Shown here piece by piece: positions 24,444 to 61,945 of a stretch of DNA of 64,000 nucleotides (its first letter is position 1; every line of letters starts with the position of its first letter). This DNA comes from Babesia bigemina. Taxonomy: Eukaryota. Below the pieces are notes generated by a model. The model saw only the letters and a program-made list of their open reading frames with translations. It was not told the origin of the DNA and did no database searches. The DNA lies in assembly GCF_000981445.1 (NCBI RefSeq), contig NC_027218.1, forward strand, positions 992,001-1,056,000. Reading direction: 5' to 3'. The translations under genes were made by a program, and so were the position numbers.

Positions 24444-24788
24444 TCATTTGCGGGTAAAACAATCGCGGACTTTGTGGAACGGCCGTATGCGAAAGACGCT
24501 CATGACGCAGATGACTATGAGCATGATTAGTATGACGGGAGTTATGACGACGACAGGGCGTATGACATTGCTTTTACAACATGGGCAGTCACAAGGGTCA
24601 CCGTATCTAAAGCCACATTTCCCACAAATATCAGGATTACAGATGTTGTAGCCTGCTCTCGTCACAATACACGCTTTGCAACGGTTGCTTCCGGTACATC
24701 CTATACAACACCATGAACAACACCTACATGTGCGGTTACTACACTCTCCGCCCCTAGTACCACAATCACACGGTGTCCCTTCATCCAT
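24444..24788 (-). CDS. Small 18-Cys protein with C-terminal TM (family copy 1, divergent from the retroelement)
   Basis: CxC..C..CxCCxWCCxxC..CxxC..C..CxxC..CxCxCC followed by VILIMLIVICVMSVFRIRPF. Three paralogues in this window keep the same 18 Cys. Confidence 0.7.
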   Translation of the reverse strand: MDEGTPCDCGTRGGECSNRTCRCCSWCCIGCTGSNRCKACIVTRAGYNICNPDICGKCGFRYGDPCDCPCCKSNVIRPVVVITPVILIMLIVICVMSVFRIRPFHKVRDCFTRK

Positions 24789-25132
24789 CTTACCCTTCCT
24801 CCGTTCACAACAACCTGCAAACTACGCAACAGGCAGCTCAACCTACGACACTCCCTTCCCATCTATACGCACTAACGTGAAACACGTACCCGGGCCGCAG
24901 ACCGGTGAAACCGCCAGCCCGTCTCCCCTCACCGTTTCCGCAATCTTCGGTCACCGATAGCCATGCTTCTGCCGGGTAATCCACAGCCACGCGTTTTCCA
25001 CTACAGAGATACCACACCTAATGGGATATATGTGGATTCGTTATATTACCCCATCAGTCTGGGAAAATGTCTTGAAGGTTGCACATGTAGCCTTGAATCA
25101 ATGCATCATAGTGGTTATCAACCCACAAGGAG

Positions 25133-27715
25133 GTGGAGCAGATGGCAAGACAGGTAGTCGCCAAAGCAGCGCGGAGCCAACCGACGGACGTTGGAGAAAT
25201 AGCATCGCTGCACGACGTCGACTCATACAACGCCCTGCAGGAGGATTTCGACCGGATCATGGCACAGAGGTTGAGGGAGCCAGGTGTTATTAGGACAGTA
25301 AAGAACAAAAGACACACCATGGACTCCCTCGACTTCTCGGCGATTAGGTCGCTGGATCTAGTGGTCCACAACTACGTGAAGCACAACCCAGTCACTGATA
25401 TGGGGATGCTAGCCATCTTGTATCAGACGGCACAGGACTGCTACGACAAGTACAGCGCGAAACCATCGTCGTCCTCGGGAAAGAAGGAGGCAGCAGAGAG
25501 GAGGATCAAGGAGCTGGAGGAGATAGGAGCACTACTTCTGAAATACAAGCAGAAGGTCCCCCTGGAGAAGGAGGATAGGAAACGCGTTTATCGCCAAATG
25601 GACAAGTACAACATGATCGCGGACAAGCCGCAGGAACTGTCATACGTGATCAGCAGGACTCAAGAGGAACTCCAAAAGGAGCAGGACAAACTCAAGAACG
25701 CCAAGTTCAAGCAGGAGTTGTACAACCATAACCGCATGTTCGAGCTTTACACGGGACACTTCTACAGGACACTGGAGAAACAGCAGGACGCGGATGAGTC
25801 GGCGATAAACGAGGGGATGATGATAGAGTACTGGGCGCAAATGTGGGTGAAGCCAAACGCACCGCACAACGGTGAAGGATACCTGGTCGAAAGACCACCG
25901 GCAGAGAACATGGCAGGCTTTCCCACATACGAGGAATTCGTCACGATCGTCAAGAAATTGCGAGACTGGAAGTCGCCCGGTGCGGATGGGATCTACAACT
26001 ACTACATTAAATGGCTCACGTCCCTTCACAGAGTCATTTATAGGCTAGTAGAGGAGGCATGCACGCAAGGCAAAGTGCAGGACGACTGGTTCTACTGTGG
26101 GATCACGTACCTACTACCGAAGAACAAGAAACCAAAGTCCGCCGCACAATACAGGCCTATCACGTGCATGTCCAACCTATACAAGCTAACTACCCGTTGT
26201 GCAACGGAGACGCTTAAGCGAGAAGTCGATGGCAGGGGACTACGGTCCGAGAACCAGATGGGCACGAGGAGCAACGTACAGGGTGCAAAGGAGCACGCGT
26301 TAGCTAACATCGCGCTCAACGAGAAGCACAAGGGGAAGTTACTTGCAACGTGGGTCGACGTCATGAAGGCGTACGACTCAATCCACCACGCGTACCTGGC
26401 AAGGGTTATCGACAGCCTTAACCTACCAGGGTGGTTATCAAACTTCATCAAGCAGACGACCAAGAGGTGGAATATAGAGATACGGTGGAACAAGAACACA
26501 ATCATGCACAAGAAAGTAGAGAGGGGCATTCTCCAAGGCGACAGCCTGTCGCCCCTTCTCTTCGTGCTGTGCTTGGACCCGCTGAGCAGGCACCTGACTC
26601 GCATCTTCCCCAAGGTGGAGCTAAGCGTGCCTGGCGGCAGGATCTTCGCCACAAACCACTTTCTCTATATTGACGACCTCAAGTTCTTCGCCCACGAGGA
26701 AAGTACGATGAGAGGAATGGGCCGAGAAGTGGAGAAGTTCTTCAACGACATAGGACTCAGGATCAACCGCGACAAGTCGGCAACCAACACGGAGGCGTGC
26801 GTGAGCATCGCCAAGCAGATGGAAGGCCCGGAGACGTACAAGTACTTGGGAGTCACAGAGACTTCAAACTCACTTACAAGCGACGGAATGTTCGACATAA
26901 TACTACAGGAGATATGCAGGAGAACGGAGCTACTGGCTGCGTCAAAGCTGTCGGGGAAAAACCTCTCGATGGCCATCAACCAGTACGCCCTCAGCGTCAT
27001 CAACTACTACATCGGCGTGATCCCCATGGACATCACGCATTTCGACAAGATCGACCTGGCAGTACGGAGAATAATTAACGCGAAGCACGGACACAAGAAG
27101 TGGGCGAACACACAGAGGCTCTACCTCCCCCGGAAAGAGATGGGGAGAGGGCTCCACAGCATGGTATTCAGAGCGGAAGCCATGCTGCTACGACTGTGGT
27201 TGACGTTTTCAGCAGACGAGGTGACGTCAACCAGGAGGGCTGCGATCATGCAGCATTTTCGCGACACATACGCGCACATATCTCATATCAAGATGCACCT
27301 GGAAGGGAGATATGGAATGGAATTCGGAGTGGAGGACACGACGGACAAGAGCCTCAGGGACCTCAGGGTGGCCCAAAACAAATGGCTGTACAACAGAATG
27401 CACGTAAAATCAACTCATAAGGTTCTGTATGCCAAGCGTGAGGACCCCAAGCTGGACATCGAGGCGTCGTCATTGTACCTGACGTGTGGAATACTCACCC
27501 CGGAAGAAGCAGCGAAGGTAGCAGAAGTCCAGGACAGGAATCTGCAATGGATGACTTCGTCCAAGAAATGCTCAAGATGCAACAACGGCAGGAACGTAAA
27601 CCACCTCGAGTCAACGGGCCTGAAAATTCTACTAAGAATATACGAAGAATCACATAGAGGCAACCGAAATAGTCCACTCATTACTCGGGAGGCAAATAGG
27701 ACCACCCAAGGATAA
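25133..27715 (+). CDS. Reverse transcriptase ORF (860 aa, uninterrupted)
   Basis: Non-LTR RT motifs in order: KSPGADGI, YRPITCMSNLYKL, ENQMG, WVDVMKAYDSIHH, RGILQGDSLSPLLF, LYIDDLK, GLRINRDKS, YKYLG, LYLPRKEMGRGL, CSRC-x7-H. First ATG is at 25142. Confidence 0.93.
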   Translation: MEQMARQVVAKAARSQPTDVGEIASLHDVDSYNALQEDFDRIMAQRLREPGVIRTVKNKRHTMDSLDFSAIRSLDLVVHNYVKHNPVTDMGMLAILYQTAQDCYDKYSAKPSSSSGKKEAAERRIKELEEIGALLLKYKQKVPLEKEDRKRVYRQMDKYNMIADKPQELSYVISRTQEELQKEQDKLKNAKFKQELYNHNRMFELYTGHFYRTLEKQQDADESAINEGMMIEYWAQMWVKPNAPHNGEGYLVERPPAENMAGFPTYEEFVTIVKKLRDWKSPGADGIYNYYIKWLTSLHRVIYRLVEEACTQGKVQDDWFYCGITYLLPKNKKPKSAAQYRPITCMSNLYKLTTRCATETLKREVDGRGLRSENQMGTRSNVQGAKEHALANIALNEKHKGKLLATWVDVMKAYDSIHHAYLARVIDSLNLPGWLSNFIKQTTKRWNIEIRWNKNTIMHKKVERGILQGDSLSPLLFVLCLDPLSRHLTRIFPKVELSVPGGRIFATNHFLYIDDLKFFAHEESTMRGMGREVEKFFNDIGLRINRDKSATNTEACVSIAKQMEGPETYKYLGVTETSNSLTSDGMFDIILQEICRRTELLAASKLSGKNLSMAINQYALSVINYYIGVIPMDITHFDKIDLAVRRIINAKHGHKKWANTQRLYLPRKEMGRGLHSMVFRAEAMLLRLWLTFSADEVTSTRRAAIMQHFRDTYAHISHIKMHLEGRYGMEFGVEDTTDKSLRDLRVAQNKWLYNRMHVKSTHKVLYAKREDPKLDIEASSLYLTCGILTPEEAAKVAEVQDRNLQWMTSSKKCSRCNNGRNVNHLESTGLKILLRIYEESHRGNRNSPLITREANRTTQG

Positions 27716-28256
27716 GATAGACGCCCACAAGATCGAGAGTGAAGTGCATGGAAAATACGGATGGATCGCGTACGACAAGACGGTCAAGACTCAGAAGACT
27801 AAGGAATACAACAGGCCAGACATCATCCTGGCGGATCGGCGGAGGAACACCATAACCATCGTGGAGATAGGAATCACCAATCAAGACAACCTAGTGGATA
27901 CGGAGAAGTTCAAGAAGCAGAAGTATGAAGACCTTATCGAGGACCTCAAGGCGCGACAGTTTAACCAGCAAACCAAGATCAGGGTTATCCCCTACGTTAT
28001 GACGTGGGAGGGAATAGTGACAAAGGAGCACAGCAAGTACAGACGGGACCTGGGCATATCGGATCGCATGGAAGCTCACATATAACGGGTAGTGATCCAA
28101 GAAACACATAAAATAGTGATGAGGGACATGAAACCGAAAGAAGACTACGACTCCGTAGAAGACCCTCAAGCCCTAACTGGATGGATGTCCACATGGATGG
28201 CACCAGTGACTATCTGCAACAAACCGACGTGGATTCCGCAACTAGTACCAGCGTGA
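27636..28256 (+). pseudogene. Frameshifted REL endonuclease/C-terminal part of the retroelement ORF
   Basis: The +1 frame relative to the RT ORF opens at 27636 (EYTKNHIEATEIVHSLLG...WIAYDKTVKT..NRPDIILAD..IVEIGIT..KYEDL..VIPYVMTWEGIVT). There is an in-frame TAA at 28083-28085, and the frame then continues to TGA 28254-28256. A stop at that last position is also present in all three relic copies. Confidence 0.8.
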
Positions 28257-29199
28257 GGCGGTGGCCCCGCAAACACGAAAACCGGCCCAAGGCACGTAGC
28301 CACATAGCACACTATAAGATGAGATAACTTAATTTAAGGTTATCAACTATATGAGATAACGTTTTGATAGGGGCGCTCCGATGTTCCTGGACACTTTTCA
28401 CGTTACTTCCCCACGTGGTAATTGTCTCGTGGCGTCCACCCCTCTTCTGCCAACCACCTACCTCTAGCATTTGAATTATATTATCCCTTATATAAATCCC
28501 ATGTCTCGTGTATTCGTGGTGTTCACACAGGACCACGCAGTTTGGCATTTCCTCGCATCTCAACCGTTGAGACAGAAATCCATTGAGCTGTGTTGAGCCG
28601 AATATGGTTCAGTCACATGTAATTGACTCCACATCCCACAGATTCATCACCACAACAGCGCTCAAGATGATGCTATGAAGCAGTGGCTTGTTCGTTCCCA
28701 TCCCTCCCATAATGCTAAGTCATTTGTCTGAATTAAGTTGGACCTTGAAAATTGAGGTTCGCAGTCGCAAATATGATTCACTCTAGCATTACAGGACATA
28801 TTATGTAGCACTCTATGAACACAAAAACGCATGAAACCATCTCAGTACTCATTCCCACCATTTAGCTGTCGTGGCCAGGCACTCGCATGGTAATGGCTTG
28901 TAAATAATAGTGGAGATACTGAACTACGGTGAGAGGTGCCATACAATGTCCATCTTTGAATGTTAAGTGTATTGGCGGTGTTTTAACATCTGAGGAGATC
29001 GTAGGACGTACATCTCCCACCTTCCCCACTTTATCAGTTAAGGCGTACGCAAAACAGACAGTGGCATTTAATTCATCGTAATTGCGTTGACGAGAAGTAC
29101 TGCCACTTCTATGCATTATGAAACGTTGTGATAACTAAAAGTAGTGCTGACATGACAATAACTGTAATCGTAGATGAGGTTGCGTCTGTTTCCTGCCAT

Positions 29200-29640
29200 A
29201 ATATCTGCTATTTGGCTACATTCGTCAGGCAACGCCTTTCGTGTCTCTTCATGACTTATGACACGGACTACGCTGGCTTAAGACTCGGAACCCACGTCGT
29301 ACTGTTGGTGATAGTAACTGGTGACATCCATGCTGTTTGGGTGAGAGTGTCATTTAGAGAGCCATATAATTCGTTGAGTTTTATACACCTCATCGGATAA
29401 ACTATAGCCTTCAACATATCATCTGGCGTATCTATCCCCCTTTGGGCTCCCTTACTACGTCTTCACACCTCCTCTTGTATGTCTAAGTATCGACATGGAG
29501 GCATTGGTTGGTAGCCCCGGCTTCCACTATGATTATCGCATTCGTTTGCCTATTCTGAGAGAGGTCAAATTAATAATGCTCCTTGGCCTTCTCCGTGTTG
29601 AGGCTCATGTCTTAGGCTCTCCATTGTTACCGTGGTCATG
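29200..29640 (-). mobile_element. Decayed retroelement 3' relic (endonuclease region plus 3' end) upstream of ves #1
   Basis: Minus strand translates to WRA*DMSLNTEKAKEH and NRQTNAIIIVEAGATNQ, versus element WIAYDKTVKTQKTKEY and DRRRNTITIVEIGITNQ. Nucleotide similarity to 28190-28305. Confidence 0.75.
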
Positions 29641-29939
29641 CGCCTACTCCTCACTGCCGTTCTGCCAGTATACTAGTTTACAGTTCCTTTTATCTTCACT
29701 GTGCTTCAACGTTACACTTCGAATACTCCATAGTGATGTCACATTCGCAGGCATCTCGCATAGAAGACTCCGCTCCTTTTGGAGGCATCAAAGGAAGCCA
29801 TTTTACCAGGAGATGTTTCGCCTGGGTTTTACAACATGATCTTATTCACATGACTGACGTGCATCATTCCATTTAAGGTTTCGTGAATGTATCCTCTCCT
29901 GTATTACTGGTAGATGGAGGTAATGGGGTGGAACACTAA

Positions 29940-30317
29940 TTGCAAAGGAGTGGGAGAGAAACCGATACGAATATTAATGAGCACTTCATACAGCTTTCAA
30001 CTATTGCATTGAGGCTTTGAAAGTTGGACTGTAGTTTGGGGGTCTGAAGTCACTTCCTAAGTGGACTAGAATTTGGAGCTGTCTGGGCACTGACGGTTGG
30101 GATTAGGTGAGCAAGGCGGGTGCCAGTTTTGCCGTGAATTCTAAATGCGCCCGCAATTGAGCAGACGCTTAAGTAATGTAGTTTAGAGCACTACATTACA
30201 GTTTGCCAGTCGTCCAGCGCTTATCGCATTTTTAAAACGGAGTAGGTGATCTGCAACCTCTAATTGTTGGTGGGTATATTGAAGTTGCGCATACAGTTTG
30301 TCGCTTGTTTCTGAAAT
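29940..30317 (+). promoter_or_regulatory. Conserved ves 5' flank (putative promoter/5' UTR), copy 1
   Basis: Colinear similarity with 43505-43881 and reverse complement of 60821-61200, e.g. cgaatattaa and tgttggtggg(t/c)atattga(a/g)gttgcgcatac. Function is inferred from position only. Confidence 0.5.
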
Positions 30318-33300
30318 ATGGCGCCGCAATTCAAGAAGCTGACGGACTGCCCTGAAAATTTAAGGGAGGCCATCGACTGGCTCATACAGATCAGGCATGG
30401 AGGTGATGGTCAAGGTCTTGGGAAGTTGGCGAAGGCTTTGAAAAAGTTGATTGAAAAAGTAACTGATGATGCTCTAAGAAGTCTTAGTGATGAGCAAGAT
30501 GCAAATAATAAATCTTCGGATTCAGATGCTTCTACCGAGTCGCCGTCTTCTTCGTCGTATCAGAGTCCCTCCAATCTGCTTGATGAAATTGATAAGCGCC
30601 TTGTAAAAGTTAAAGACAATATTGAAGCTGAGAAAGAAAAACTTAAGAACCATGACATGCCGGAAACTCGTCAGGCTATAAAGCATCTTGAGGCTAAGTC
30701 AGAGTCCTTGGAAATTGTAAAACAATTTGCAAAATTTTCCGAAAAACATTTGATACCTGAAGGCACTGGTAATATGCTTAATAAGTTTTGTGCTGGTTTA
30801 GAGCATTTATTAGGTTACAACTCCGGGATGTATACTGGGGATGGCATAGTGTACGGCGATTGTGACCGCCTCCGGGATGCCGTTTTGATGTTCTTTCACG
30901 GTTTGTTGGAGAGTGTGACGAATGATGATAATGTTACAACGTATGATGGTTACATTGGTGAACCTAATAAGCTTTGTAATGTCATTCGGAATCTATACTC
31001 TTCCATAGGTCGGGGTTCTGAGGAGTTTGGAAAGCAAGTTGACAGTGTGAGTGGCTGGCTTAACAAATATAACGAGCAAGTCGTCACATTAACTAATAAA
31101 GTAAAGGAGGAAATATATGATGTAAGGAATTTAATTGATATTGAAATTTCGTATATATCATCGCTTAAATCTAGTAATCTTAGAAAGATTCAGAATATTT
31201 ATGGTAATCACGTTGATGCGGCTGTTAGCCGAATGAAAAGTCTTAAAGGAAATAAAAATGGTTTTGCAGGGCTTGACAACGCATTGAGAGATATGCTGAA
31301 TGTATGTTTGGGCAAGATCGAAACGGCGGTAGAAGTTTTAACAAATTCTTCGAAGAATGAGGCATTTATTAAGTCTCTGCAAACTCTGCAGAATACTTTT
31401 AAGACCTTACCTGAGGACTTAGAGAGCTTTATAATTACGAATTTTAATGTCACTGTAAAAGATCACAAAAATAAAGTGGAGGTGTTCAAGGGAGGCATTG
31501 AGTCTACTATAAATGCTCTTCGTGATACATTTATGAAGGAACGTCTTAAGGTGGCTTTGACGGATTTGAAAAATGCTGTTATCTGCGCGAATACCAACGC
31601 TTTAAACATAGGAGGTTTAAATAATAACGTGATAAGAACGGCGATTAGCGCAATTGAACAAAGGTTGAAGACAGCAGATGATGTTGAGGATAGTGCGGCT
31701 TTGTTAGGATTGAAAACTGGAATTATTCAGACGCAGACGAATCTAATCGCAAAAGAGCTTAATGGTGCGGCACATGAAAACACTAAGGAGTTAAAAGATC
31801 TGGGAGCGTCGTTTGAAGGCCCTGATACTATGATTCGAGAGCATGAAACTGAGTTGAGTAAATTAGTTCATCAAGCAAAAGAGAATTTGTTACAGGCCGT
31901 CGCCTGCGCTAAAGATAACGCCAGTAACTTGGGTGGCTTGAAGAATAAGACGGTTGCAGCGGCGATTGATGCTATTCAAAAAAAGTTGAAGGATATTAAT
32001 GAGGGAGCGCAGGAAATCAAAACCTTTCAAGATCTTAAAAACCTCAGAAGCCACATTATTGATGGGCAGATTGCGAAGATTGCTGGAGCGCTTAATCCGG
32101 ATACCAGGGCATTGGGTGTTAAAAGTGGTTTGCAGCAATTGGCTACATCGATTGAAGCGCCTGAAAAGACATTTAATAGACTTCATCAAGTTAGTTTGAA
32201 AGAATTGACTGAAGCAGCCCAACAGTCTTTGGAAAACATTATTGCGAAAGCTCATGAATGCATTACGACTCATGGGGGGATAAATAATAAAACTGTTAAG
32301 AAGGCTATTGAGAAAATTCAGGACAAGTTGGCTAAAGAAACCGATAGTGTCGTTACTATGAAGGCTCTTACGGAGTTGAAAACCAGTTTTATGGATGATG
32401 AAATAAAGAGTATTACGATGATCCTTAATAAGAGCGCTTTGACTTCGAATGTTATAAGTGGTTTAGCAGGTAATACAACGTCGATTAAAGCTCCCGAAAA
32501 AATATTTAGTGATACGCATAAAACTACATTGGACAATTTGGCTAGTAATTCCCAGGACGATTTACAGAACGCCATAGACAACGCCATAAAATATGTTGAG
32601 TCATCGCAAGGTTCTTTGCAGAAGAAGATTGACAAGGCTTTCGAACAAGTTATTAAGTCAACGGATAGGAAAACCCAGGCTAAAGAGTTGGCACAGAGGA
32701 TGGCAGCTTCGCTGAAGGATGTAAAGAATGGGATTAATGAAAGTTACAGCGAAAGCAGCCATATTGAAGGCAAATTTACAAAATTGGACAATTATATCGA
32801 AAACATGAAGGGTGGTTATGAAGCTAAACTTCAAACAGATTCCACCAACGATGATTCCGAAATTAAACGCTGGGCAACAAGTACAATCTCTCTTATTATC
32901 ACCAACTCCCTAACAGAGGCCAACGACACGATCACCAAGGCAGACAAGGATTATATGACGGCAGTGAAAGCGCAGCTTGTGCAGATTAAATCAAAAATTA
33001 GCCAATTTAAAAAAAACGCTGATATCAATCAGCTTGTAGATGCCACCTCTAATATTGTCACTCACTTTGCCTCCATACAATCCGCCATCAAAACAAAATC
33101 CGTATATGAGGCAGACAAAATCGACCGCGAAACCTATTTCAACAACCTAATGCGGCAAACTACCGACACAGTTTCCATCCTAAAAGCTGCTTTTCAGAAG
33201 GCCTACCAGAGCTCGGCGAAAGCTTATCTCAGTGGAGCTATTAAGGAAATTAAGGAGAAGATTGTGACAGCTGAAGGTCTATACCAGCAGGCGGTTTTAG

Positions 33301-37894: not shown

Positions 37895-38263
37895 ATGGAG
37901 GAATCGAAGTGTACGTGCAGTCTAAGTCGCGGAAGATGTGACGAAGCAGTATGTATATGCTGTCTCTTGTGTTGTGATGGGTGTAAAACTGGTGTAGAGC
38001 TGTGTTCAGTATGTCCAGATATCGCATCTCTCAGAGATACTAATAACTGTGAACATACGTACTGTAAGATCGTATGTAGATTCAATTGTGAATGCGGATG
38101 TTGTAAAAAGAAACGTATACTCCGTCTCGTCGGTTCCATCATCATCGCCATCATCGCCCTCATCCTTCTCTTCGATCTGCTCATCTTTCACATTTTGCCT
38201 TTCCCCCAAGTCCGCGAATACATCGTCCGAAAATTACCGTTTTGCATCGCATTTTATAATTAA
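37895..38263 (+). CDS. Small 18-Cys protein with C-terminal TM (copy 2, downstream of ves #1)
   Basis: Same 18-Cys spacing, then TM IIIAIIALILLFDLLIFHILPF. Confidence 0.7.
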   Translation: MEESKCTCSLSRGRCDEAVCICCLLCCDGCKTGVELCSVCPDIASLRDTNNCEHTYCKIVCRFNCECGCCKKKRILRLVGSIIIAIIALILLFDLLIFHILPFPQVREYIVRKLPFCIAFYN

Positions 38264-39349
38264 ATCCATCACTTTGTATTATCGCAATTCATTAAATGAT
38301 TCAAACATCAAGGCCATAAATCTTGTCTAATAATGTATTATCAAATGTTTCGTAATACAGCATAGACGTCCAACCAGAGACACTCACGAATTATATCGGC
38401 ACATAGCATTGGATGCACATTGGCAATTCAATGGAATTAAGTTAATTCGCCTGTAACACGTATTACCATGACGTCATAACATGTTTTTGCATCCGATGCC
38501 ACAAAATACGGTAGACCCACGTGCAATCTTCATCGCCATATTATTGTCACTTAACACCTTGATGACGCCACTGATTGCTCACCCAACAAACGTAACCCGC
38601 AACTCACCAGTGAATGCAGTAGACCTACTCGTGGCCTGGGTGTTTTTATATTGGCGCTAATTAATATTTCGTTAGTAGATTTCGTAGCTATGGCTATACT
38701 GAACAAAAATCCTCTTCTATAATATTAAATTACCCAAAGCCTGTAACTCCATGAATCTGATGGCTTCAACCAGTGTAAAATATCTTTGTATCGGTATCAT
38801 CCAGCGGCAATATACTGGCATCGTTCACGAAGAAAAGCTGGCAACTGCAGACGTTGTGGGTGGCATCACAACATCATAAATTCTACACGTAGTAGTTCTA
38901 GACCCTAGGCTGCAGATTGTGCACATTTTTGCACGTTGGACGTTTGCTTGTTGACTAAATCCACGGAAGATTACTTTCATGTATTGCCGCGGTTTGCGTT
39001 TATTTCACTAGTTGGACGATACATTAGATGGGGCGATAACACAGATTGCATCTGCATAGCTTTAAGATTGGAAGTAGCGACGGTGGTTGCCTCCATGAGA
39101 AGCAACGCTACAATATAACACATTTGTGACTTTTCGTCATTTGGTTGTATATCAAGGCGTTGTTAGGTCTGTCATTTAATAACTAAGTAGCATTTCAGGA
39201 GATTGCCAATATGTATCGCAGTTCAGCTCCCAAAGTAAAGTGTGACGTAATTTAGGGGCGATCACGTAACCGTTTCATGAAATGACTCGATCGGAACGCA
39301 TGATCGATGTAGTGGCAGTTACTGAAACTATTTTGGTCTTCTTTGCTTC

Positions 39350-43210: not shown

Positions 43211-43504
43211 ACTCCTCACTACCGTTCTGCCAGTATAGTCTTTTGCAGTTCGTTTTACTTTCACTGCTCTTTGATGTGACACTCCGAATACATCATATTG
43301 GTGTCGCATTCGCATATATCACGCACCGAAGACTCCGTTCCTTTTAACGGCAGCAATAGGAGTCATTGTACCAGGAGTTCTTTCACATCGTTTTTACAAC
43401 ATGCTGCTATTCAGATGACTGCACTCGATCATTCTATTTCAAGTTATGTGAACATATCCTCTCTTGTACTGCTGCAGTATAGTAGTAATGGGGCTGACCA
43501 GTAG

Positions 43505-49953: not shown

Positions 49954-50517
49954 ATGTCGTATGATTGGTTTCTCGAGTGTACGTGTGGCAAAAGTTGTAC
50001 GACACGTGAGTGTTATTGCTGTCACTGGTGTTGTAAAGTTTGTGAAACAAAGTGTCTTCGATGTCGCAATTTGTCTCAATCGCGCAGAAGTGGATTTGCG
50101 AAATGCCATGATTCAATATGTAAACACTGTAACAGAGACACATGTCCATGTCAGTGTTGTAATGCGAGACGCCCTGTCGTCTTTACTCGTTCCCTGTCAT
50201 CTACTACTCAACAGCGTGGCGCTTCTTCCTCCAGTGGCGTCTCTGCCCCCTGTTCCCCCGGTCACACCACTCTCCCCCCTTTAGCACAGCAAACCGGTCG
50301 ACACTCTACCACCAATTCCCCCTCCGTCCTCCCCATCATCATCGCCGTCGTCGTCCTCATCATCCTCGTCACCATTTTCATATCGATTGTCGGATTGTGG
50401 CTTATGCGTCTTACAGACACACAGAGGATGGTGCTTGAAATAAGGCGTTTGAGCACGGATGCAAAACCTGCGCCTCACGCACCGCCTATCTCTCCACTGC
50501 AGCACGGCCTCAACTAA
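49954..50517 (+). CDS. Small 18-Cys protein with Ser/Pro linker and TM (copy 3, downstream of ves #2)
   Basis: ATG at 49954 (MSYDWFLECTC...), 18 Cys, TM LPIIIAVVVLIILVTIFISIVGLW. Confidence 0.7.
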   Translation: MSYDWFLECTCGKSCTTRECYCCHWCCKVCETKCLRCRNLSQSRRSGFAKCHDSICKHCNRDTCPCQCCNARRPVVFTRSLSSTTQQRGASSSSGVSAPCSPGHTTLPPLAQQTGRHSTTNSPSVLPIIIAVVVLIILVTIFISIVGLWLMRLTDTQRMVLEIRRLSTDAKPAPHAPPISPLQHGLN

Positions 50518-52675: not shown

Positions 52676-53134
52676 TTAGCTGCGCAGCAGATACCGCACC
52701 CTGTGGAACGGCCGGATGCGGAAGTAGATCATGACGCAGATGACGAGGATGATGAGGGCGACGACGGCGATGATGTAAGGGGCGGGGGAGGGAGATGAAT
52801 TAGAGGCGCCGGTTGAAGCCTCTTGATCGGCGGCTTGAGGCTGAGAATGGAGGATCTGAGGCAGAACGCCGGGGGCAGGGGCAGTAAACCGTTGACCGGT
52901 AGATGAAAGGACATAGACAGCAGGGCGTTTTGCCACACAACATGGACATGGGCACTTGGTTTCACATTTTGTACATCTCGAATGATCGCACTGCCACTGT
53001 CCACTCATGCGCGAAATTCGGAAACTCGCACATCGAACACAAAATCGTTCGCATCCTTTACAACACCATGAACAGCAATAACAATCAGATATCGTACAGT
53101 GTTTATTACAATAACACGGGGGAGTGTAGCTCAT
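52676..53134 (-). CDS. Small 18-Cys protein with linker and TM (copy 4, downstream of ves #3)
   Basis: ATG at 53134 (MSYTPPCYC...), 18 Cys, TM YIIAVVALIILVICVMIYFRIRPFHRVR, with a tail nearly the same as copy 1. Confidence 0.72.
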   Translation of the reverse strand: MSYTPPCYCNKHCTISDCYCCSWCCKGCERFCVRCASFRISRMSGQWQCDHSRCTKCETKCPCPCCVAKRPAVYVLSSTGQRFTAPAPGVLPQILHSQPQAADQEASTGASNSSPSPAPYIIAVVALIILVICVMIYFRIRPFHRVRYLLRS

Positions 53135-54007: not shown

Positions 54008-57000
54008 TCAAGGTTGCAGATATGATATCTTCCCCAGTTTACTGACACGTCCAGCAGCAAGTAGTGATTGGGCGGCGATGCGGTGAGATGAGGGACTATG
54101 TAGATGCGATTTGATGTGGAGCAGGTCGAGGCGGATGACCATGATGTGGAGCAGGTAGAGGAGAGAAAGGAGCCATAGGGCTACGGTGGTCCAGAAGAAG
54201 GGCTCTCTGATCACCCATAGATATTCTGGAATTATATCAAATACCAACTTGGCAAGTGGAGCTTCAACATGCTTTTCTTTGTTAAGCACGTTGTCCAATG
54301 CGCGGCAGAAATCTTGGCACGTGCGTTTTTTCTCCATCTTGTTATTTCCACCGCTAAGGTCGAATGGACTGCCAAACGTAAATCCGTATGTATACAATAT
54401 TGAGTGTGTATTAGAGCAATTTACAATGGAATTGCACTCATCATTGTGCTTTTTGCCATCGAGTGCCTTTAAGTCTTCTTTATTGTCAGTTGATTTATTG
54501 GCTTTATAAACTGATGCTACATGACAATCTTTGGCACAGCGTGTACCATAGCATATTGACCCTGGGGACGTGCAGCTTTTGCAACATCTATCAGATAGGT
54601 CTTTAAGTAAATTATAGAATGTTTCTGCCTGGTATATAATCCATGAAAGATATAGACCAGCGTGCTCTCCATAGTACAGCAGTCGGATGTCGTCGCCGAT
54701 AGATTGTAAGTATCGGCCGCATGGCATTGTTGGCGAATCCTCAGGATTACAAGATAGGAGGCTGAATAAGTCACCTTTCTCATGGGTTGGTTTCCCGTCG
54801 GTTGGATTATGTTTGCTAGTACACAATATGGTACTTGGGTTTAAGGCATCGAAAGGACATCCGAGATTGGCTCTAGTGACGGCATCGTTAAATGCTAGTC
54901 GCCTGTGCTCTTTTTGCGTTGACCGGTCATCATCATAGTGGTCAAGGAAGTTGTAATAAAACGCAAACATGTCGCACAAAGTTTGCGGAGGACGGCGCAG
55001 CAGCAGTAAGAAATAGGAGCAAAGCAAGTTCAGCGATTCGTTTTCTGTGCCACAGAACCAATCGAGCACCTTTTTGATACGTTCACCTTTTTGCTGATGA
55101 GACGCCCGTATACTTAGGTCCCGGAAACCCATCGGCGTCTTACACGGGATGCCGTTGTGGTTGGGCAGCGAACATGTTATCTTACAATCAGGCTTCTCGA
55201 ATGGATGCGGCAGGAACCCCGGCAAACCATCTTCCAGGAACAATTGCAGGGGTGATTTTACGCCGCAGGAGTAATATTGCCTGCACTTTTGGTCACACTC
55301 TTGGTTGGAGCATTGCAGCTCATTGCACTGCCAACGAGACCCGCCTACACCCTTGCCGTATAGGCAGTCACGCCACCCACCGCACTCAGGACCGTTGTGG
55401 CACTGCTTAAATAGGAAACGAATCTGATGATTCACCCGCAACGATATCTCCACGAGCAAATCGAGACATTTATCTGGGTTGCTTGGATACAACAAATCAT
55501 CCGGATTTGTGAGGAAGTCACAGGCGTACCGTCCGTCCTCTTGACCATGACCGAGTATGGCGATCAGCATCTTATTTGCGCGAATTGTTGAGTTGTTGAA
55601 CACGTATATTAATTCCTTGCGAGTCAGTGTTCTAGTCATGCTAACGCTTCTCCTATAAGGCAGAGCGACTTTTAGCTTATCAGTTTCAACTTTGTTTTCC
55701 CTTTCGACATCTTCCAACAATTTTTTAAGGCTCTCCTGCAGAGGAACGAACACAGGGTTGTACCAGAGCCCACCGAGCCAATGCAACATTTCGTATATTG
55801 TGGTCGGTGCCCTGGCGTCCGGGATGTCTCGGCGGTGACATACTTCGTAGTATTTCTCAAGGTGGTAGTGGAGATCCTGCAGCGCGCCATCCGTTTTGTC
55901 TGGCCCAGCGTATATTTTGTCGTTTACTCTCGTGCCATCGCCAACCAGTCGAGTGATTATGTCTGCGCCCGTCTTGATCCTGCTCAACTCGCCGTTTTGG
56001 GTGTCCTTATCAACAGACACTGTAAAACCGCGATGCTGGAACCAAGCGCCCAGGTGATTATCAGTTTTCTCACTATTAGCGATATTATATAAACGAATGT
56101 GTTTATCATTCCACTCGCCTTTAGTCTTTACCTTATTACGCAATCCATCGAGATCATGGAACAGTATCTCTAGCATGGTAAGGCAGACCTTGGCGCATTT
56201 ATCACCATTAATTTCCCACTTAAAAACATAAGCCGCTCCGCAGTACGTGGAGATATATGCCCTGCCGAGTTCCCTAAGGAAAGACTGAAGACCTGACTTG
56301 AGGATGTAGAGCAAAGGATCGCAGTGCCTGCCGAACTTAAACGGGCTCATTGGTTCAAGGAACCGTACGAATTCCTCGAGTTTCGATGCGAATGACTTAT
56401 TGAAGTACCCAGACGATAGCGTGCCGAAAAGTCCTCGAGTGTGATGATCAAGCCTATCAAAGTAATCTGAAATGGGATCTTTAATGGGCTGTGCAGATAA
56501 AAACTGTTGCCCTGTGGACGTCCTGCGCATTTCACCTGAGTAACCTGCACGTCCAGCAGGTTGGGGTGCATTCGGGTCCTTTGATGATACAGATAGCATG
56601 GCCGGCCTCGCTCTGTAACCGCCACCCGAAATGGGTGGCGGGGCTGGTCGCGATACGGGATTGTCATCGGTATCGCTATCGCCCTCCACTTCCATGCCGT
56701 CGTATAGAAACTTCACGTACTTGTGAAGAATATCGTAGAGGCCTTTAAACTTTGCAGCCACCGAACCCATAGTTTCCGCATTTGTTAGTTCCGCATTTTT
56801 CATATTAAACCATGTTTTCAGCAACTGTAGTAAACCTTTGATACCGGTGAGTCTATCTTCCTCAATTATTTTCCCCACATTTATTTGTTGCCTTTCAACC
56901 AACGATTGTAAGGCTCTTATGTTGGCTATGCGATCCTTGGCGTACATCGTGCGAACTTCAGCAGTGATTTTGTCGAACGCTTCTTTAACTCGAACTTTAA

Positions 57001-60000
57001 CGCTTGACCCAAGCATATTAAACCTGTGATCAGCATCCTTGAAAGATTCATTAAGGTAATGATCAGAAAGAGTAACACATATGTCGAATGTTTCACTAGA
57101 TTTAGCAATAGTGTCCGTCGTATTTTTTATTAAAGTTTGGAGTTGAGTGAAACGGTCCCTACGAGCATTCAAATCTGTACGGAAGGCCGAATTTTCTTCC
57201 ACAGTTTTCTGCAGCTCTTTGAAAATCTCGGTAAACGATTCTCCTAATTGCTTTCTTTTTAGCATTTCCTTAGGCTCTTTTTTTTTCGACTTATCATCTT
57301 TAAAAATGTCATCCTGAAGCGCAGTAATTTTTCCTTTCAGTTTCTCAATTTCTCTACTAACGGCCGCCGTGTATTGCAATTCAGCTGTATTTACCTTTTG
57401 TCGAATCGCATAAATTGCGTTACTAAGATACGTCTTCGCGGAACTTTGGTAGGCCTTTTTATAGGCAGCAGAGAGGGTGGCAAGTGTGCCTGTAATTAAT
57501 TTCTGAAGTTGGTTGAAGCATTCTTTACGTTCAGTGAAATCAGCTATGAATATTGAGTTTTTTTCTACTTGCTGTAGAAACTCTGTGAATGGTACAGTGA
57601 GCGTTCCAGTTAATGGGGCTCTCGTTGCCTGTTTTGTAAACACTTCATGATTAATCCCAGATAAATCGACATCTAGTTTAACCTTAGTCACATAAGTATG
57701 TTGTACCTTATTAACTGCGCCTTTTATTGCACTGATCGCTCCATTGAGATAAGCCTTAGCCGCGCTCTTGTATGCATTTTGGTAAGCGGTGTCAAGAGTA
57801 TGCACATTATTAGTAATAAGGTCTCTCAGATTGTCGAAATACGTTTCTCGATCGGCGATGTCACTCTGAAAGACGGATTTTTGTTTGATTGCTTCGGTTA
57901 TCTGCTTGAGGGGTGCGTCAATGTTAGAGATGACTTCGCCAAGTTTATCTTGTCTTGCCTTCTCCATAAGATGCACAATCTCCGATGCAATCCGAGAAGT
58001 TAAGCCATTGATAGACATTTGATATTGCACCTCAGCTGCTTTCACTTCCGCATTTATCTTGCTAATCGCCCCGCTGAGGTACGATTTGGCAGCGCTCTTA
58101 TATGCATTTTTGTAGGCAACAGACAGTGTGGAAATCGTATCGTTGAATAGTTGCATGAGGTTAGAAAAGTACTTCTCACGCGCTTTTTTGTCATCATCGT
58201 AAACAGAATGATCGGTGACGGCCGATTGAATAGTGGAGAAATGTCTTTCATATCCGCCGAGAAAACCTTCAAGTTGGTCATTCTGAGCATTCGTTTTAAG
58301 AGTTTGTATATGTACCTTAATCAGCTGAAGTGCAGCCTTAACCGATTTTCGATACGCCTGGTCGGATTTTATAACATCGGCGTTGGCTTCTTTAAGTGTA
58401 TAATCCAAAAGAGATGAGGTGACATCATAAATCCAAGCAATAATGTCAGTGTCGTTATCTCCGTTGGATCGAAGTTTGGCTTCAATTCGGCTCTCTATGG
58501 TACTAATGTAACTTGGCAGTTTAGTGAATGTATTATTTATGTCACCCCTATAAGATGAATTAAAATCTTTGTTAAGGGCATTAAGTTTTGCAACAACTTG
58601 TTTAGCCAAATTTTTGGCTTCGCCCGTCCTGTTCTTAGACTCAGTCTTCAATACATGCCCGAACGCATCCATAATTTTTTTTTTCAATCCAAAGTCTGTG
58701 CATAATACATATACATCAGCCTGCACTAAGGCCTCCACTAAATCCTTTTCTGCCTGCTCGGCCAAGCTTTCCAATGACCTTTTATACCCCGCAAATACTT
58801 TATCAGTATTGGCAAATTTATCTTCTAAGTTTTTTAAATTCTTGGTAATTTGTTCCGCATCTTTATTAAGCAAAAGTTTAATCGCTTGTGTCTGATTTCC
58901 AACAGGCTCCTTTTCTAATCTCTTTAACGCGTCCATACTATCAAGTCTATCAGTTTCCACAGTATCCAACTTCTCCTGAATCTTCTGAATAGCATTTTTA
59001 AACGAAACGTTATTTAACCCTCCGTGCGCCATAATGCAGTCTTGAGCCTTCCCAATAATATTATCCAAATTCGTCTGAGCTTTTCGGGCCAAACCACTTA
59101 ATTTCGATTTATGCTTATTAAATGCATCATCAGGGCCATCAATATTACCTTGCAAACTAGTAACATGAATCTCAACAGCGCTTCCACCTGGATTTTTCGC
59201 ATCCGTAATATGCCCAATATGCACTCCGACAGGGTCTTGTGCCAACTCCTGAAGCGTTTTCAGACTATTAACGTGTGTATCAACAGTATTCAATCTTTCT
59301 TCAATTTGATTTAGAGCCACCTCAACCGTTTTATTCTTCAACCCTCCTAAGTTCTTGGCGTGTTCGTTGGCGCAATGAAGAGCTTTTGTTAGATCATTTC
59401 TGGCTTGCTCAACGAGACTTATCAACTCATCTTGATGCTTATTTTTAAATGTTTCGGTAGGTTCTTCAATCGTAGTATTTAATGTTTTTAATGCATTAGT
59501 CATGTTCGTTGCGCCCTCACTCAACTCCTGTCTAATCGCTTCGATCTGCGGCCCCACAGTCACAGCCTTTAAATCAAGTAATGCCTTTTGGTCTTCAACA
59601 GTATCCGCGCTATTCAACATTTTTTCAATAATCTCAATCGCACTTTTAACTACTCCATTCCTTAACCCTCCCAAGTTAGAAGCGTTGCTGTTTGCACGTT
59701 CCACCGCATGCTGCAAATCTTTTTGTGCCAGGGCGAGGCGTTTATTTATGAAATCGTCACGTAAAGCGACAATATCATTTTTAACTTTCTGTTTGATCTT
59801 TTTAATTGCTTTTTCATACTCACCAATTGTAATCGTAACATTATCGGATATGAATTTATAAAGTTCGGCAGGCAATTTATTAAAAGTCGACTCGATAACT
59901 TTCACTGCTCTCGATAAATCTTCGTCATGTAAAGCATGCTGCAGCATTTCTATTCCCTCATCAATTTTTTCTAGCGGCACATTCAATTTATCTTTTAAGC

Positions 60001-60820
60001 CAGTATCAAGGCCATTAAATCCTTCATCATTTTTCCTAATGCCAGTCAAAAATGCTTTGAGTTTAACTATAGACTGCATTAATGAAGTATTTATCGCTGT
60101 ACAACCATTGTCTTTCACAGCTTCAATATTCTGCGAATACTTATTTATATGCTTATCCTTCAACTCACCTAATTGACCCTTAACCTCGTTAGTCCGCTGT
60201 GTAAACATGTTATTCCACATAGACAATGTGGACTCCACACTGCTTATTGCAGAAATAAATCCCGCATGTCCATTACCAATTTTCTTATTGAGAAACTTTA
60301 TGATCTCATCAACATTAACGACGTATTTCCCTACCGCATCATCACTTTTAATACTGTCAAACACTCCATTTAAGAACATTGTAACGGCGTCTCGCAGGCG
60401 GTCACAATCGCCGTAAACTATGCCCTCCCCAGTATAATTTCCAGAATTGTAGCCTATAAAGGTTTCTAAGCCGGCACATAATTGCGTTAAAAAGTTTTTT
60501 TCGGGATATTTCGAAGTCAGTTGTAGGTTCTCTAATAATGGGGTGAGGCTCTCCTGAAGTTTATCGAAGGATTTCTCCTGCTCGCCAAGTTTGTTAAGCA
60601 TAGATCGCTTCGCTGCGATATCATATATTTTTTCGACCTTTTCCTTTCGGCTATTAATACCATCTTGAGTAACCCAGATAGCATCTGTAATGAACTTTTG
60701 CAAAGCCTCTGACAAGTTCTTAATACCATCCGTTTTCCCGTTCTTAATCTGTATCAGCCAATCGATGGCCTCGCGGAGGTTTTCCGGGCAGTCAGTGAGC
60801 TTCTTAAATTGAGGGGCCAT
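54008..60820 (-). CDS. ves: VESA-family protein #3, 2270 aa, single ORF, close paralogue of #1
   Basis: Identical start MAPQFKKLTDCPENLREAIDWLIQI, same internal repeats, same Cys-rich region and tail as #1. Confidence 0.85.
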   Translation of the reverse strand: MAPQFKKLTDCPENLREAIDWLIQIKNGKTDGIKNLSEALQKFITDAIWVTQDGINSRKEKVEKIYDIAAKRSMLNKLGEQEKSFDKLQESLTPLLENLQLTSKYPEKNFLTQLCAGLETFIGYNSGNYTGEGIVYGDCDRLRDAVTMFLNGVFDSIKSDDAVGKYVVNVDEIIKFLNKKIGNGHAGFISAISSVESTLSMWNNMFTQRTNEVKGQLGELKDKHINKYSQNIEAVKDNGCTAINTSLMQSIVKLKAFLTGIRKNDEGFNGLDTGLKDKLNVPLEKIDEGIEMLQHALHDEDLSRAVKVIESTFNKLPAELYKFISDNVTITIGEYEKAIKKIKQKVKNDIVALRDDFINKRLALAQKDLQHAVERANSNASNLGGLRNGVVKSAIEIIEKMLNSADTVEDQKALLDLKAVTVGPQIEAIRQELSEGATNMTNALKTLNTTIEEPTETFKNKHQDELISLVEQARNDLTKALHCANEHAKNLGGLKNKTVEVALNQIEERLNTVDTHVNSLKTLQELAQDPVGVHIGHITDAKNPGGSAVEIHVTSLQGNIDGPDDAFNKHKSKLSGLARKAQTNLDNIIGKAQDCIMAHGGLNNVSFKNAIQKIQEKLDTVETDRLDSMDALKRLEKEPVGNQTQAIKLLLNKDAEQITKNLKNLEDKFANTDKVFAGYKRSLESLAEQAEKDLVEALVQADVYVLCTDFGLKKKIMDAFGHVLKTESKNRTGEAKNLAKQVVAKLNALNKDFNSSYRGDINNTFTKLPSYISTIESRIEAKLRSNGDNDTDIIAWIYDVTSSLLDYTLKEANADVIKSDQAYRKSVKAALQLIKVHIQTLKTNAQNDQLEGFLGGYERHFSTIQSAVTDHSVYDDDKKAREKYFSNLMQLFNDTISTLSVAYKNAYKSAAKSYLSGAISKINAEVKAAEVQYQMSINGLTSRIASEIVHLMEKARQDKLGEVISNIDAPLKQITEAIKQKSVFQSDIADRETYFDNLRDLITNNVHTLDTAYQNAYKSAAKAYLNGAISAIKGAVNKVQHTYVTKVKLDVDLSGINHEVFTKQATRAPLTGTLTVPFTEFLQQVEKNSIFIADFTERKECFNQLQKLITGTLATLSAAYKKAYQSSAKTYLSNAIYAIRQKVNTAELQYTAAVSREIEKLKGKITALQDDIFKDDKSKKKEPKEMLKRKQLGESFTEIFKELQKTVEENSAFRTDLNARRDRFTQLQTLIKNTTDTIAKSSETFDICVTLSDHYLNESFKDADHRFNMLGSSVKVRVKEAFDKITAEVRTMYAKDRIANIRALQSLVERQQINVGKIIEEDRLTGIKGLLQLLKTWFNMKNAELTNAETMGSVAAKFKGLYDILHKYVKFLYDGMEVEGDSDTDDNPVSRPAPPPISGGGYRARPAMLSVSSKDPNAPQPAGRAGYSGEMRRTSTGQQFLSAQPIKDPISDYFDRLDHHTRGLFGTLSSGYFNKSFASKLEEFVRFLEPMSPFKFGRHCDPLLYILKSGLQSFLRELGRAYISTYCGAAYVFKWEINGDKCAKVCLTMLEILFHDLDGLRNKVKTKGEWNDKHIRLYNIANSEKTDNHLGAWFQHRGFTVSVDKDTQNGELSRIKTGADIITRLVGDGTRVNDKIYAGPDKTDGALQDLHYHLEKYYEVCHRRDIPDARAPTTIYEMLHWLGGLWYNPVFVPLQESLKKLLEDVERENKVETDKLKVALPYRRSVSMTRTLTRKELIYVFNNSTIRANKMLIAILGHGQEDGRYACDFLTNPDDLLYPSNPDKCLDLLVEISLRVNHQIRFLFKQCHNGPECGGWRDCLYGKGVGGSRWQCNELQCSNQECDQKCRQYYSCGVKSPLQLFLEDGLPGFLPHPFEKPDCKITCSLPNHNGIPCKTPMGFRDLSIRASHQQKGERIKKVLDWFCGTENESLNLLCSYFLLLLRRPPQTLCDMFAFYYNFLDHYDDDRSTQKEHRRLAFNDAVTRANLGCPFDALNPSTILCTSKHNPTDGKPTHEKGDLFSLLSCNPEDSPTMPCGRYLQSIGDDIRLLYYGEHAGLYLSWIIYQAETFYNLLKDLSDRCCKSCTSPGSICYGTRCAKDCHVASVYKANKSTDNKEDLKALDGKKHNDECNSIVNCSNTHSILYTYGFTFGSPFDLSGGNNKMEKKRTCQDFCRALDNVLNKEKHVEAPLAKLVFDIIPEYLWVIREPFFWTTVALWLLSLLYLLHIMVIRLDLLHIKSHLHSPSSHRIAAQSLLAAGRVSKLGKISYLQP

Positions 60821-61200
60821 CGTTCAAAAACTAAAGTTCAACGTATGCGCAACTTCAATATGCCCACCAACAATTTGAGGTTGCAGATTCCGAGTCCACT
60901 GCAGAAATGCGATAAGCACTGGACGGCTGACAAACTGTTCCTTCAGTGCTATAAACTACATTACTTAAGTAAATACACGATTGATGGCGTATTTGAAATT
61001 CACGACAAAACTAGCAGCCGCCTCGCTCATCTAATTGCAACCACCAGTACCCAGACAGCTCGAAATTCTAATCCACTTCGGAGGTGACGTCAGACCTCCA
61101 AAATACAGCCCTATGTTTAGCTTCCTTAAGAAACAGCTAGAGGTGATGCAAGCGGCGCATTAATATTCGCATCGGTTTCTCTCCCACTCCTTTGCAATAA
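60821..61200 (-). promoter_or_regulatory. Conserved ves 5' flank, copy 3
   Basis: Reverse complement is colinear with 29940-30317, e.g. ttgcaaaggagtgggagagaaaccgat.cgaatattaatg. Confidence 0.5.
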
Positions 61201-61499
61201 ATGGTACGCCCCACTGCCACTGCACGGTGTTAACATAATACTAATACGGCATTCCCAAATGTGACTCGGGTACCTGGGCGGAGATTACACGAATACAAGC
61301 ATGCCGTAATCGATAAGCGGAAAGTGCAATGGCGTTTCACCCCTCCGTATCGTTTACAGGGAAAGGAATCCTCGACGCATGATGTCTGCGAATGTGACGT
61401 CAGTGTGGAAGATTACTGATGTAACTGTGAAGCACAGTTAAGATATACTTGCCTGAAAGGCGATCGTATGAGTGAATAGCGGTAAGGGCAAGTGGATGA

Positions 61500-61945
61500 C
61501 TGTAGTAATGATGGAAAATGCCATGCCAAACTCAGGAGTCTCACAAGGGCTAAGAGCATACTCTACCAGAAGACAGCATAGTAGATAGTATAAAGAAAGC
61601 CTTCACAACCGTGGATAACGGGACTGTCAGCGAAGACAACCTGGTGTAGACGGGGCATAAAAGAAGAGGACATACAGAGACGTGGTTGAGGATATGAAGC
61701 GGAGAGCTTTCATCTAGCAGAATAATTTCATGGTTATATGTTATACGATGAGGAACCTGTAATTCAGAAAAGATTACTACTCTGTAGGGGACCCTCTCCC
61801 CCAAACTGGATGGATGGCCGCATGGATGGCACCAGTCACGATCGGTAACGGACCGACGTGGAACCAGCAACTAGTACCAGCGTGAGGCGGTAGCCCCGCA
61901 AAATCAAAAACCGGCCCAAGGCACGTAGACACATAGCACACTATG
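61500..61945 (+). mobile_element. Decayed retroelement 3' relic upstream of ves #3
   Basis: 61770-61945 aligns closely with element 28135-28305. Upstream it translates to VDSIKKAFTTVDNGTVSEDNLV* and YRDVVEDMKRRAFI*QNNFMVICYTM, versus ADRRRNTITIVEIGITNQDNLVD and YEDLIEDLKARQFNQQTKIRVIPYVM. Confidence 0.88.

What the first reader, a model, noticed from the sequence alone, without database searches (positions are those of the whole stretch)
24444..61945. Candidate system: ves variant-antigen cassettes appear to be built on a non-LTR retrotransposon scaffold
Seen in sequence: four units share the same two ends in the same relative orientation. Unit 0 is [18-Cys ORF <- | RT-REL element ->] at 24444-28310. 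Units 1-3 are [18-Cys ORF <- ves <- promoter | REL-3' relic ->] at 29200-38263 and 42760-50517 (both inverted relative to unit 0) and 52676-61945. Relative to unit 0, ves and its flanks occupy the interval where the RT-coding part sits. Inference: either ves cassettes are non-autonomous cargo-carrying derivatives of the element, or one ancestral ves/element chimera was amplified by recombination. A third possibility is that unit 0 arose by loss of ves from a cassette. Each reading links expansion of a Babesia antigenic-variation family to a retroelement, which I do not know to have been described.
Basis: partly seen in the sequence, partly recalled or inferred. Interest (0 to 1): 0.92.

Follow-up and report, generated by a model that had tools for sequence, protein, structure and literature searches.

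The report
Retrotransposon tail upstream of ves1b genes
Three surface-antigen (ves1b) genes of the cattle parasite Babesia bigemina each carry the same decayed tail of a LINE retrotransposon about 690 bases upstream, and this tail likely marks, and may anchor, the edge of the DNA block that gets copied when these antigen genes spread.

Summary
Partly confirmed. All three ves genes (likely ves1b, Babesia bigemina) carry, about 690 nt upstream and divergently, the last ~590 nt of an RT-REL non-LTR retrotransposon. The three relics share one 5' edge and one ~120-nt deletion, so they likely have one origin. Homology between cassettes stops at the element's 3' end. In two of three the last 200 nt stay 79-82% like the young element, against 52-57% just upstream.

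The 'scaffold' reading fails. Unit 0 is a separate 5'-truncated insertion with a 10-nt target duplication that excludes the Cys ORF. The 18-Cys membrane gene is a general ves companion (12 of 15 homologues near ves, mostly ves1a; 1 near an RT). No target duplication brackets any cassette.

Best reading (0.5): an old LINE tail was captured upstream of a ves1b ancestor and spread by DNA recombination, the tail serving as homology anchor with young copies. Rival (0.25): cassettes are retrotransposed in trans. Babesia LINEs are published; I found no paper linking them to ves. Earlier scan notes held nothing similar. No whole genome was available, so the genome-wide frequency of the relic is untested.

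The parts
22654..23642 (+). NudC gene (two coding exons); its 3' end 23494-23643 is duplicated at 62024-62173
   Evidence: Pfam Nudc_N and CS; intron joint 23098-23158; duplicate 90.7% over 150 nt
24444..24788 (-). Cys0: 18-Cys plus membrane-segment ORF (114 aa from the first Met); outside the unit-0 insertion. ORF plus ~200 nt of 3' flank is 66% like Cys1
25113..25122 (+). left copy of the 10-nt target-site duplication of the unit-0 element
   Evidence: junction placed (other copies diverge before 25121)
25121..28340 (+). 5'-truncated, broken RT-REL non-LTR retrotransposon (lacks the first 302 codons; frameshift near 27630; early stop near 28083); 96% protein identity to full-length B. bigemina copies
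28338..28347 (+). right copy of the target-site duplication
29180..29630 (-). U1 relic: element 3' end with the shared ~120-nt deletion; tip decayed (61% to unit 0)
29630..30317 (.). U1 ves 5' flank (~690 nt), shared among U1-U3 (71-76% near the ATG), no homology to the element
30318..37181 (+). ves1 ORF of U1 (2287 aa), likely ves1b
37895..38263 (+). Cys1: 18-Cys membrane ORF, ~700 nt downstream of ves
39255..41749 (-). two housekeeping genes between U1 and U2: prenyltransferase alpha (PPTA repeats) and a C2HC5 zinc-finger gene
42740..43190 (-). U2 relic; REL part like U1, tip 79% like unit 0; switch at the deletion junction
43882..49200 (+). ves1 ORF of U2 (1772 aa), likely ves1b
   Evidence: shared flanks and C-terminus with U1 and U3
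49954..50517 (+). Cys2: 18-Cys membrane ORF
52676..53134 (-). Cys3: 18-Cys membrane ORF
54008..60820 (-). ves1 ORF of U3 (2270 aa), likely ves1b
61510..61970 (+). U3 relic; tip 82% like unit 0, followed by an A-rich tail
62024..62173 (+). duplicated NudC 3' end, 79 nt beyond the U3 tip motif; a W/Y tRNA-synthetase gene (TrpRS) follows on the minus strand

Best explanation
Each of the three ves genes carries the same decayed 3' end of a LINE retrotransposon about 690 nt upstream, likely captured once by a ves1b ancestor and then spread by DNA recombination, with the tail likely acting as the homology anchor and edge of the copied block. Steps: (1) a 5'-truncated copy (~590 nt) of an RT-REL element inserted head-to-head upstream of an ancestral ves1b and lost 120 nt (shared edge and deletion shown; single origin inferred). 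(2) The block [Cys gene - ves - 5' flank - relic] was duplicated and converted between loci (shared flanks and mosaicism shown). (3) The parent family still has several identical full-length ORFs and sits beside ves loci (shown), so crossovers or conversions between an old tail and a young element end would place a cassette at a new site, end it at the element terminus and refresh its last 200 nt (inferred). Unit 0 is one such young, independent insertion next to a Cys gene.
For: Same 5' edge, same distance to the ATG and same deletion in 3 of 3. Identity beyond the terminus falls to 38-47% in the gapped alignment, the level of non-homologous parts. Tip versus REL identity to unit 0: U2 158/201 vs 126/235, U3 165/201 vs 124/240 (p 4e-8, 2e-11); U1 shows no difference (p 0.49). 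U2 switches from U1-like (78 of 87 sites) to unit-0-like (60 of 78) at the deletion junction, 0 of 300 permutations. No target duplication around U1-U3 (188, 74, 176 of 200 shuffles score as well). RT loci lie beside ves loci: 10 of 10 chromosomal B. bigemina loci within 4 genes (background 12%; one appears to be this window's own element) and 22 of 24 B. caballi loci within 2 genes (background 19%; first 1043 genes only). The ves sites flank a local gene-order change relative to B. bovis, and ebh-labelled (ves-like) fragments occupy both positions in B. ovata. B. bovis lacks the LINE yet has ves loci that vary between strains, so retrotransposition is not required.
Against: An end that coincides with the element terminus, an A-rich tail and a conserved tip are also what target-primed reverse transcription predicts. 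A 10-nt duplication could be erased at 20-30% divergence. Selection on the tip, with decay in U1, can mimic tip replacement: a near-identical U1/U2 tract of ~85 nt inflates their REL similarity. RT/ves co-location may only reflect tolerance of insertions in ves islands; strand and distance were not available. A 150-nt NudC duplication begins 79 nt past the U3 tip, one contig of run X3 joins NudC directly to the TrpRS side, and long duplications are known for the RLE element R9 (126 bp). Only three relics could be read whole.
Confidence: 0.5

Rival explanations
1. The cassettes are non-autonomous retroelements. An antisense transcript running from beyond the Cys gene through ves to the LINE tail is copied by the element's RT in trans, or joined to a LINE 3' end by template switching, and inserted at new sites.
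For: Homology stops at the element terminus in 3 of 3, with A-rich tails; in three other runs several contigs diverge at the same point. Tips are conserved in U2 and U3. Full-length identical ORFs suggest a recently active RT. Cys-side ends vary. The literature reports 28 ves1b loci as anomalous lineage-specific insertions in otherwise collinear chromosome 3 (PMC4066756, passages). The NudC duplication lies next to the U3 tip.
Against: No target duplication for U1-U3, whereas unit 0 has one. It needs 8-9.5-kb antisense RNAs, twice the element length, and none was seen. No conserved fold of the tips (z 0.18, -2.24, 1.25, 0.43 for the long fragments). The NudC-bracketed 38 kb holds two housekeeping genes and both sites appear occupied in B. 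ovata, so it is not a simple fresh insertion. ves1a loci are absent between strains at least as often as ves1b (28-31% vs 16-20%).
Confidence: 0.25
2. The relic is a domesticated part of the ves1b promoter or its divergent-transcription terminator. It hitchhikes passively; tip similarity comes from function or from gene conversion with abundant element ends, with no role in spreading.
For: Fixed spacing of ~690 nt in 3 of 3, with intact long ORFs. ves promoters of B. bovis are bidirectional (stated in PMC4066756). The U3-type flank and relic are covered by several distinct contigs in two other runs.
Against: The REL part differs by 50-56% between U3 and U1/U2, far more than the ATG-proximal 400 nt (24-29%). 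The U1 tip is decayed although its ORF is intact. It does not by itself explain why homology never passes the terminus.
Confidence: 0.2
3. Cys ORF plus RT-REL element is one mobile unit, in which ves replaced the RT part.
For: Same relative orientation of Cys ORF and element end in all four units. One Cys homologue lies two genes from another RT model.
Against: The target duplication excludes Cys0. Other copies continue with element sequence at that junction. 14 of 15 chromosomal Cys homologues lie 19 or more genes from any RT model, and 12 of 15 lie within 3 genes of a ves.
Confidence: 0.04

Closest known systems
LINE-like (R2-class by MGEScan) elements of Babesia bigemina, B. ovata, B. divergens, Theileria equi (PMC9141347, passages read); RT gene cluster 03 of B. 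caballi (PMC10463595, passages and parts of the supplement)
   Same: Unit 0 is a truncated copy of this family (96% to B. bigemina proteins).
   Different: The passages read make no link to ves genes and do not describe relics in ves 5' flanks.
BbigVes1b family and its 28 anomalous chromosome-3 insertions (Jackson et al. 2014, PMC4066756; passages read)
   Same: The closest named paralogues are labelled ves1b (4 of 4 found in the table; 2 of 6 absent from it).
   Different: The paper explains ves transposition by gene conversion; 'reverse transcriptase' occurs 0 times in its main text.
ingi/RIME retroposons in Trypanosoma brucei (PMC2854126, passages read)
   Same: Retroposon sequences recombine, cause rearrangements and mark sites where surface-gene blocks were inserted; this is what the best explanation works like.
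   Different: Here one relic is built into each antigen gene's 5' flank at fixed spacing; different element clade and phylum.
SINEs sharing a 3' tail with a partner LINE, and SVA 5' transduction (recalled; SVA papers seen only as search listings)
   Same: A conserved LINE 3' tail at the end of a non-coding-for-RT unit.
   Different: No target duplications, no transcript shown, cargo 8-9.5 kb and antisense.
smORF genes of B. bovis (PMC4066756 passages)
   Same: Small multi-copy genes beside ves loci, like the 18-Cys membrane family.
   Different: The paper found no smORF homologues in B. bigemina; the Cys family has a membrane segment and no Pfam match at cut-off.

Membership tests
RLE-type non-LTR retrotransposon (unit 0 family) | single long ORF with RT domain (YxDD) | tested here: met
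   1347-aa ORFs; RVT_1; YIDD at 818
RLE-type non-LTR retrotransposon (unit 0 family) | CCHC knuckle then PD-(D/E)xK-type endonuclease after RT | tested here: inconclusive
   CCHC at 1119 in P0002, broken in unit 0. RPD...IVE motif visible in the alignment; my regex missed it and Pfam called no endonuclease
RLE-type non-LTR retrotransposon (unit 0 family) | 5' truncation, fixed 3' end, target-site duplication | tested here: met
   The 10-mer is not unusual by score alone (72 of 200 shuffles); its weight is that it lies on both junctions
R4/Dong/NeSL clade or site-specific subgroup | tree position against reference elements; fixed target | not tested
   no named reference elements at hand; tree holds only search hits
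Non-autonomous retroelement (U1-U3 cassettes) | 3' end shared with the partner LINE | tested here: met
   (conserved in 2 of 3)
Non-autonomous retroelement (U1-U3 cassettes) | target-site duplications around each copy | tested here: not met
   age could have erased them
Non-autonomous retroelement (U1-U3 cassettes) | RNA spanning the unit and ending at the tail | not testable with these tools
   only contigs were served; no RNA holder on record
Non-autonomous retroelement (U1-U3 cassettes) | empty orthologous site | tested here: inconclusive
   B. bovis genes consecutive, B. ovata occupied; one X3 contig joins across but may be a collapse through the duplicate
BbigVes1b | conserved VESA C-terminal domain clustering with ves1b | tested here: met
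   U3 query; paralogues labelled ves1b. U1 and U2 assigned by similarity to U3; no ves1a/ves1b tree built
ves LAT-type locus | divergent pair of ves1 genes | tested here: not met
   the divergent partner is the LINE relic in 3 of 3

The most novel reading that the evidence does not exclude
ves1b cassettes of B. bigemina are giant non-autonomous retroelements: the parasite's own still-intact LINE copies whole variant-antigen genes into new chromosomal sites through the captured tail, which explains the published anomalous ves1b insertions.
Probability: 0.25. Interest if true: 0.88.

Novelty: new variant of a known kind. Interest (0 to 1): 0.62.

Why it matters
How ves1b genes came to be scattered through otherwise collinear B. 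bigemina chromosome 3 was left as an anomaly in 2014. A LINE tail at the exact edge of the copied block gives a concrete marker that can be checked in existing assemblies, and it separates recombination from retrotransposition. Under either mechanism it ties a retroelement to the build of an apicomplexan antigenic-variation family, in a phylum with few transposons, and shows that the ves1b upstream region is partly retroelement-derived. It also brings out an unnamed 18-Cys membrane-protein family that travels with ves genes.

Tried and rejected

A word-indexed homologue search with Cys0 found nothing; the HMMER search with Cys3 found 24 proteins. The protein atlas gave no answer three times.

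A protein profile of 29 element proteins found only the U1 relic, weakly (E 0.012). A permissive nucleotide alignment there was noise and was replaced by strict scoring.

Folding of seven tip fragments gave no shared structure. No RNA holder was listed; X4 is only a guess at RNA, and its lack of cover on the U3 flank is not used.

Rejected: reading the NudC duplicate as the target duplication of one 38-kb insertion. The interval holds two housekeeping genes, the order is shared with B. ovata, and X3 has a second contig over the duplicate, so its joining contig may be a collapse.

Rejected: separate origins of the Babesia and T. equi elements. The free tree splits them but one clade is not rejected (AU p 0.22).

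Eight paper searches were run. sought a ves-retroelement link and showed none in their listings or in the passages read; two searches sought precedents. Subscription journals and the supplements of PMC4066756 and PMC9141347 were not seen and could hold TE coordinates. Three look-ups of earlier scan notes gave nothing relevant.
Full report
Setting. The RT protein is 96% identical to Babesia bigemina proteins, with relatives in B. ovata, B. caballi, B. divergens, Theileria equi and microsporidia. No whole genome is held, so evidence beyond the window comes from protein look-ups, published gene tables and contigs of other runs.

Unit 0. The ORF at 25112-27715 has an RT domain and matches the 1347-aa protein P0002 from residue 303 on; the rest follows in another frame to 28253 with one early stop. 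P0002 carries YIDD and a CCHC knuckle and an RPD...IVE endonuclease-like motif. B. bigemina has several full-length copies, two sets of them identical across three accessions, which suggests recent activity. Contigs from other runs match 25121-28337 and continue upstream with element sequence. A 10-nt direct repeat lies on both junctions. A 10-mer is not rare by score (72 of 200 shuffles), but its position at both ends makes it a likely target duplication. The Cys ORF starts 330 nt outside it, with at most weak similarity to ves 3' flanks in between. Unit 0 is thus an ordinary truncated insertion next to a Cys gene.

The relics. Upstream of each ves, about 690 nt from the ATG and on the opposite strand, lies the last ~590 nt of the element (27756-28342 in unit-0 coordinates; E 1.7e-16 and 3.5e-54). 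All three lack the same ~120 nt and align to each other across that point. The ATG-proximal 400 nt are 71-76% identical among cassettes and unrelated to the element. The REL part is 52-57% identical to unit 0. The last 200 nt are 79% (U2), 82% (U3) and 61% (U1). Beyond the terminus identity drops to background. The tip excess is significant for U2 and U3, not for U1. U2 changes from U1-like to unit-0-like at the deletion junction (0 of 300 permutations); U3 shows a weaker switch (1 of 300). In runs X1 and X3 the U3-type flank and relic are tiled by several distinct contigs at 80% likeness or more (up to 10 showing a variant at relic positions and 18 at the tip in X3). One X3 contig spans the deletion junction, and several contigs in X1, X3 and X4 diverge after the terminal motif into A-rich tails. 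No listed contig spans ATG to tip, so this shows multiplicity, not frequency.

The ves genes and the Cys gene. A search with the U3 C-terminal region returned 262 relatives; the 120 listed are the window's own proteins and B. bigemina and B. ovata proteins. Of six named paralogues looked up, four are in the published table and all four are labelled ves1b. Jackson et al. (PMC4066756, passages) chromosome-3 ves1b loci anomalous lineage-specific insertions. The four small ORFs share an 18-Cys domain and a hydrophobic segment. The family search gave 24 hits; 20 were looked up, all B. bigemina hypothetical proteins. Of the 15 on chromosomes (5 on unplaced contigs left out), 12 lie within three accessions of a listed ves (background 9%), nine of them nearest a ves1a, and only one lies near an RT model. 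The Cys gene is a ves companion, not part of the element.

Element and ves across genomes. Of 25 B. bigemina RT models in the published cluster, 14 on unplaced contigs were left out and 11 were merged into 10 loci. All 10 lie within four accessions of one of 135 listed ves1 genes (background 12%; 0 of 100000 draws; one appears to be this window's own element). In B. caballi, using the first 1043 genes (32 of 141 RT genes, 24 loci), 22 loci lie within two genes of a ves-related gene (background 19%). Two gene models fuse a near-complete or full element to downstream ves sequence on the same strand (P0006, P0241), so young copies have no fixed orientation. Targeting and mere tolerance cannot be told apart here.

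Flanks. No direct repeat above chance brackets U1, U2 or U3. The 3' end of NudC is duplicated 79 nt past the U3 tip motif, and one 684-nt X3 contig runs from NudC into the TrpRS side. I first read this as an empty site. But the interval holds PPTA and C2HC5 genes. B. bovis numbers NudC, TrpRS, C2HC5 and PPTA consecutively, whereas B. ovata has the window's order with ebh-labelled (ves-like) fragments at both positions. A second X3 contig also covers the duplicate. The cassettes thus sit at the ends of an old local rearrangement, and the X3 join is ambiguous.

Mechanism. Shown: one relic type, fixed spacing, homology ending at the element terminus, mosaic tips, young elements next to ves loci, no cassette target duplications. 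Inferred: single capture, then spread by recombination in which the tail pairs with young element ends (0.5). This accounts for the coincident ends, fresher tips and missing duplications together, and resembles ingi/RIME-associated rearrangements in trypanosomes (PMC2854126, passages). Retrotransposition in trans (0.25) predicts the same ends and tips but also target duplications and a long antisense RNA, neither seen; the tips share no predicted fold. A purely regulatory relic (0.2) remains open.

Novelty. Babesia LINEs are in print (PMC9141347; PMC10463595; passages). Six searches and passages of five Babesia or apicomplexan papers showed no link to ves; subscription papers and some supplements were not seen. 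I rate it a new variant of a known kind, interest 0.62.

Noticed in passing
window 24444-24788, 37895-38263, 49954-50517, 52676-53134; P0253-P0275: Unnamed family of small 18-Cys single-membrane-segment proteins, found here only in B. bigemina, that accompanies ves1a and ves1b loci; a possible smORF analogue. Many public gene models appear to use wrong upstream frames.
   Followed up: partly
window 23494-23643 and 62024-62173: The NudC last exon is duplicated; the left gene stops at about the point where the copies diverge, while the right copy reads on about 13 codons, and the X3 contig follows the right copy, so the left NudC may have a shortened C-terminus.
   Followed up: partly
window 51564-52465: A 254-aa minus-strand fragment resembling the ves C-terminal region by eye lies between Cys2 and Cys3, with a short Pro-rich stretch upstream.
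   Followed up: no
window 61800-61944, run X4 records 18-20: The element's last 90-120 nt occur in longer contigs (one of 2809 nt at depth 127) that do not match the U3 relic or flank, so the tip exists in other, possibly transcribed, contexts.
   Followed up: no
P0002, P0003, P0057, P0045, P0059: Babesia elements form one clade with two lineages (B. ovata holds both); nearest relatives are microsporidian and unnamed metagenome proteins. The T. equi element falls apart in the free tree, but one clade is not rejected.
   Followed up: partly
PMC5660447 supplement 2, clusters 8, 13, 15: B. ovata genes labelled 'extracellular matrix-binding ebh' or 'spectrin repeat' are among the top hits of the ves1b query and are probably ves1b genes under a wrong name.
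   Followed up: partly
window 53140-53288: A tandem ~75-nt repeat (85% identical) upstream of Cys3 contains the motif that precedes the Cys ORFs; many homologue models show more copies of it.
   Followed up: no
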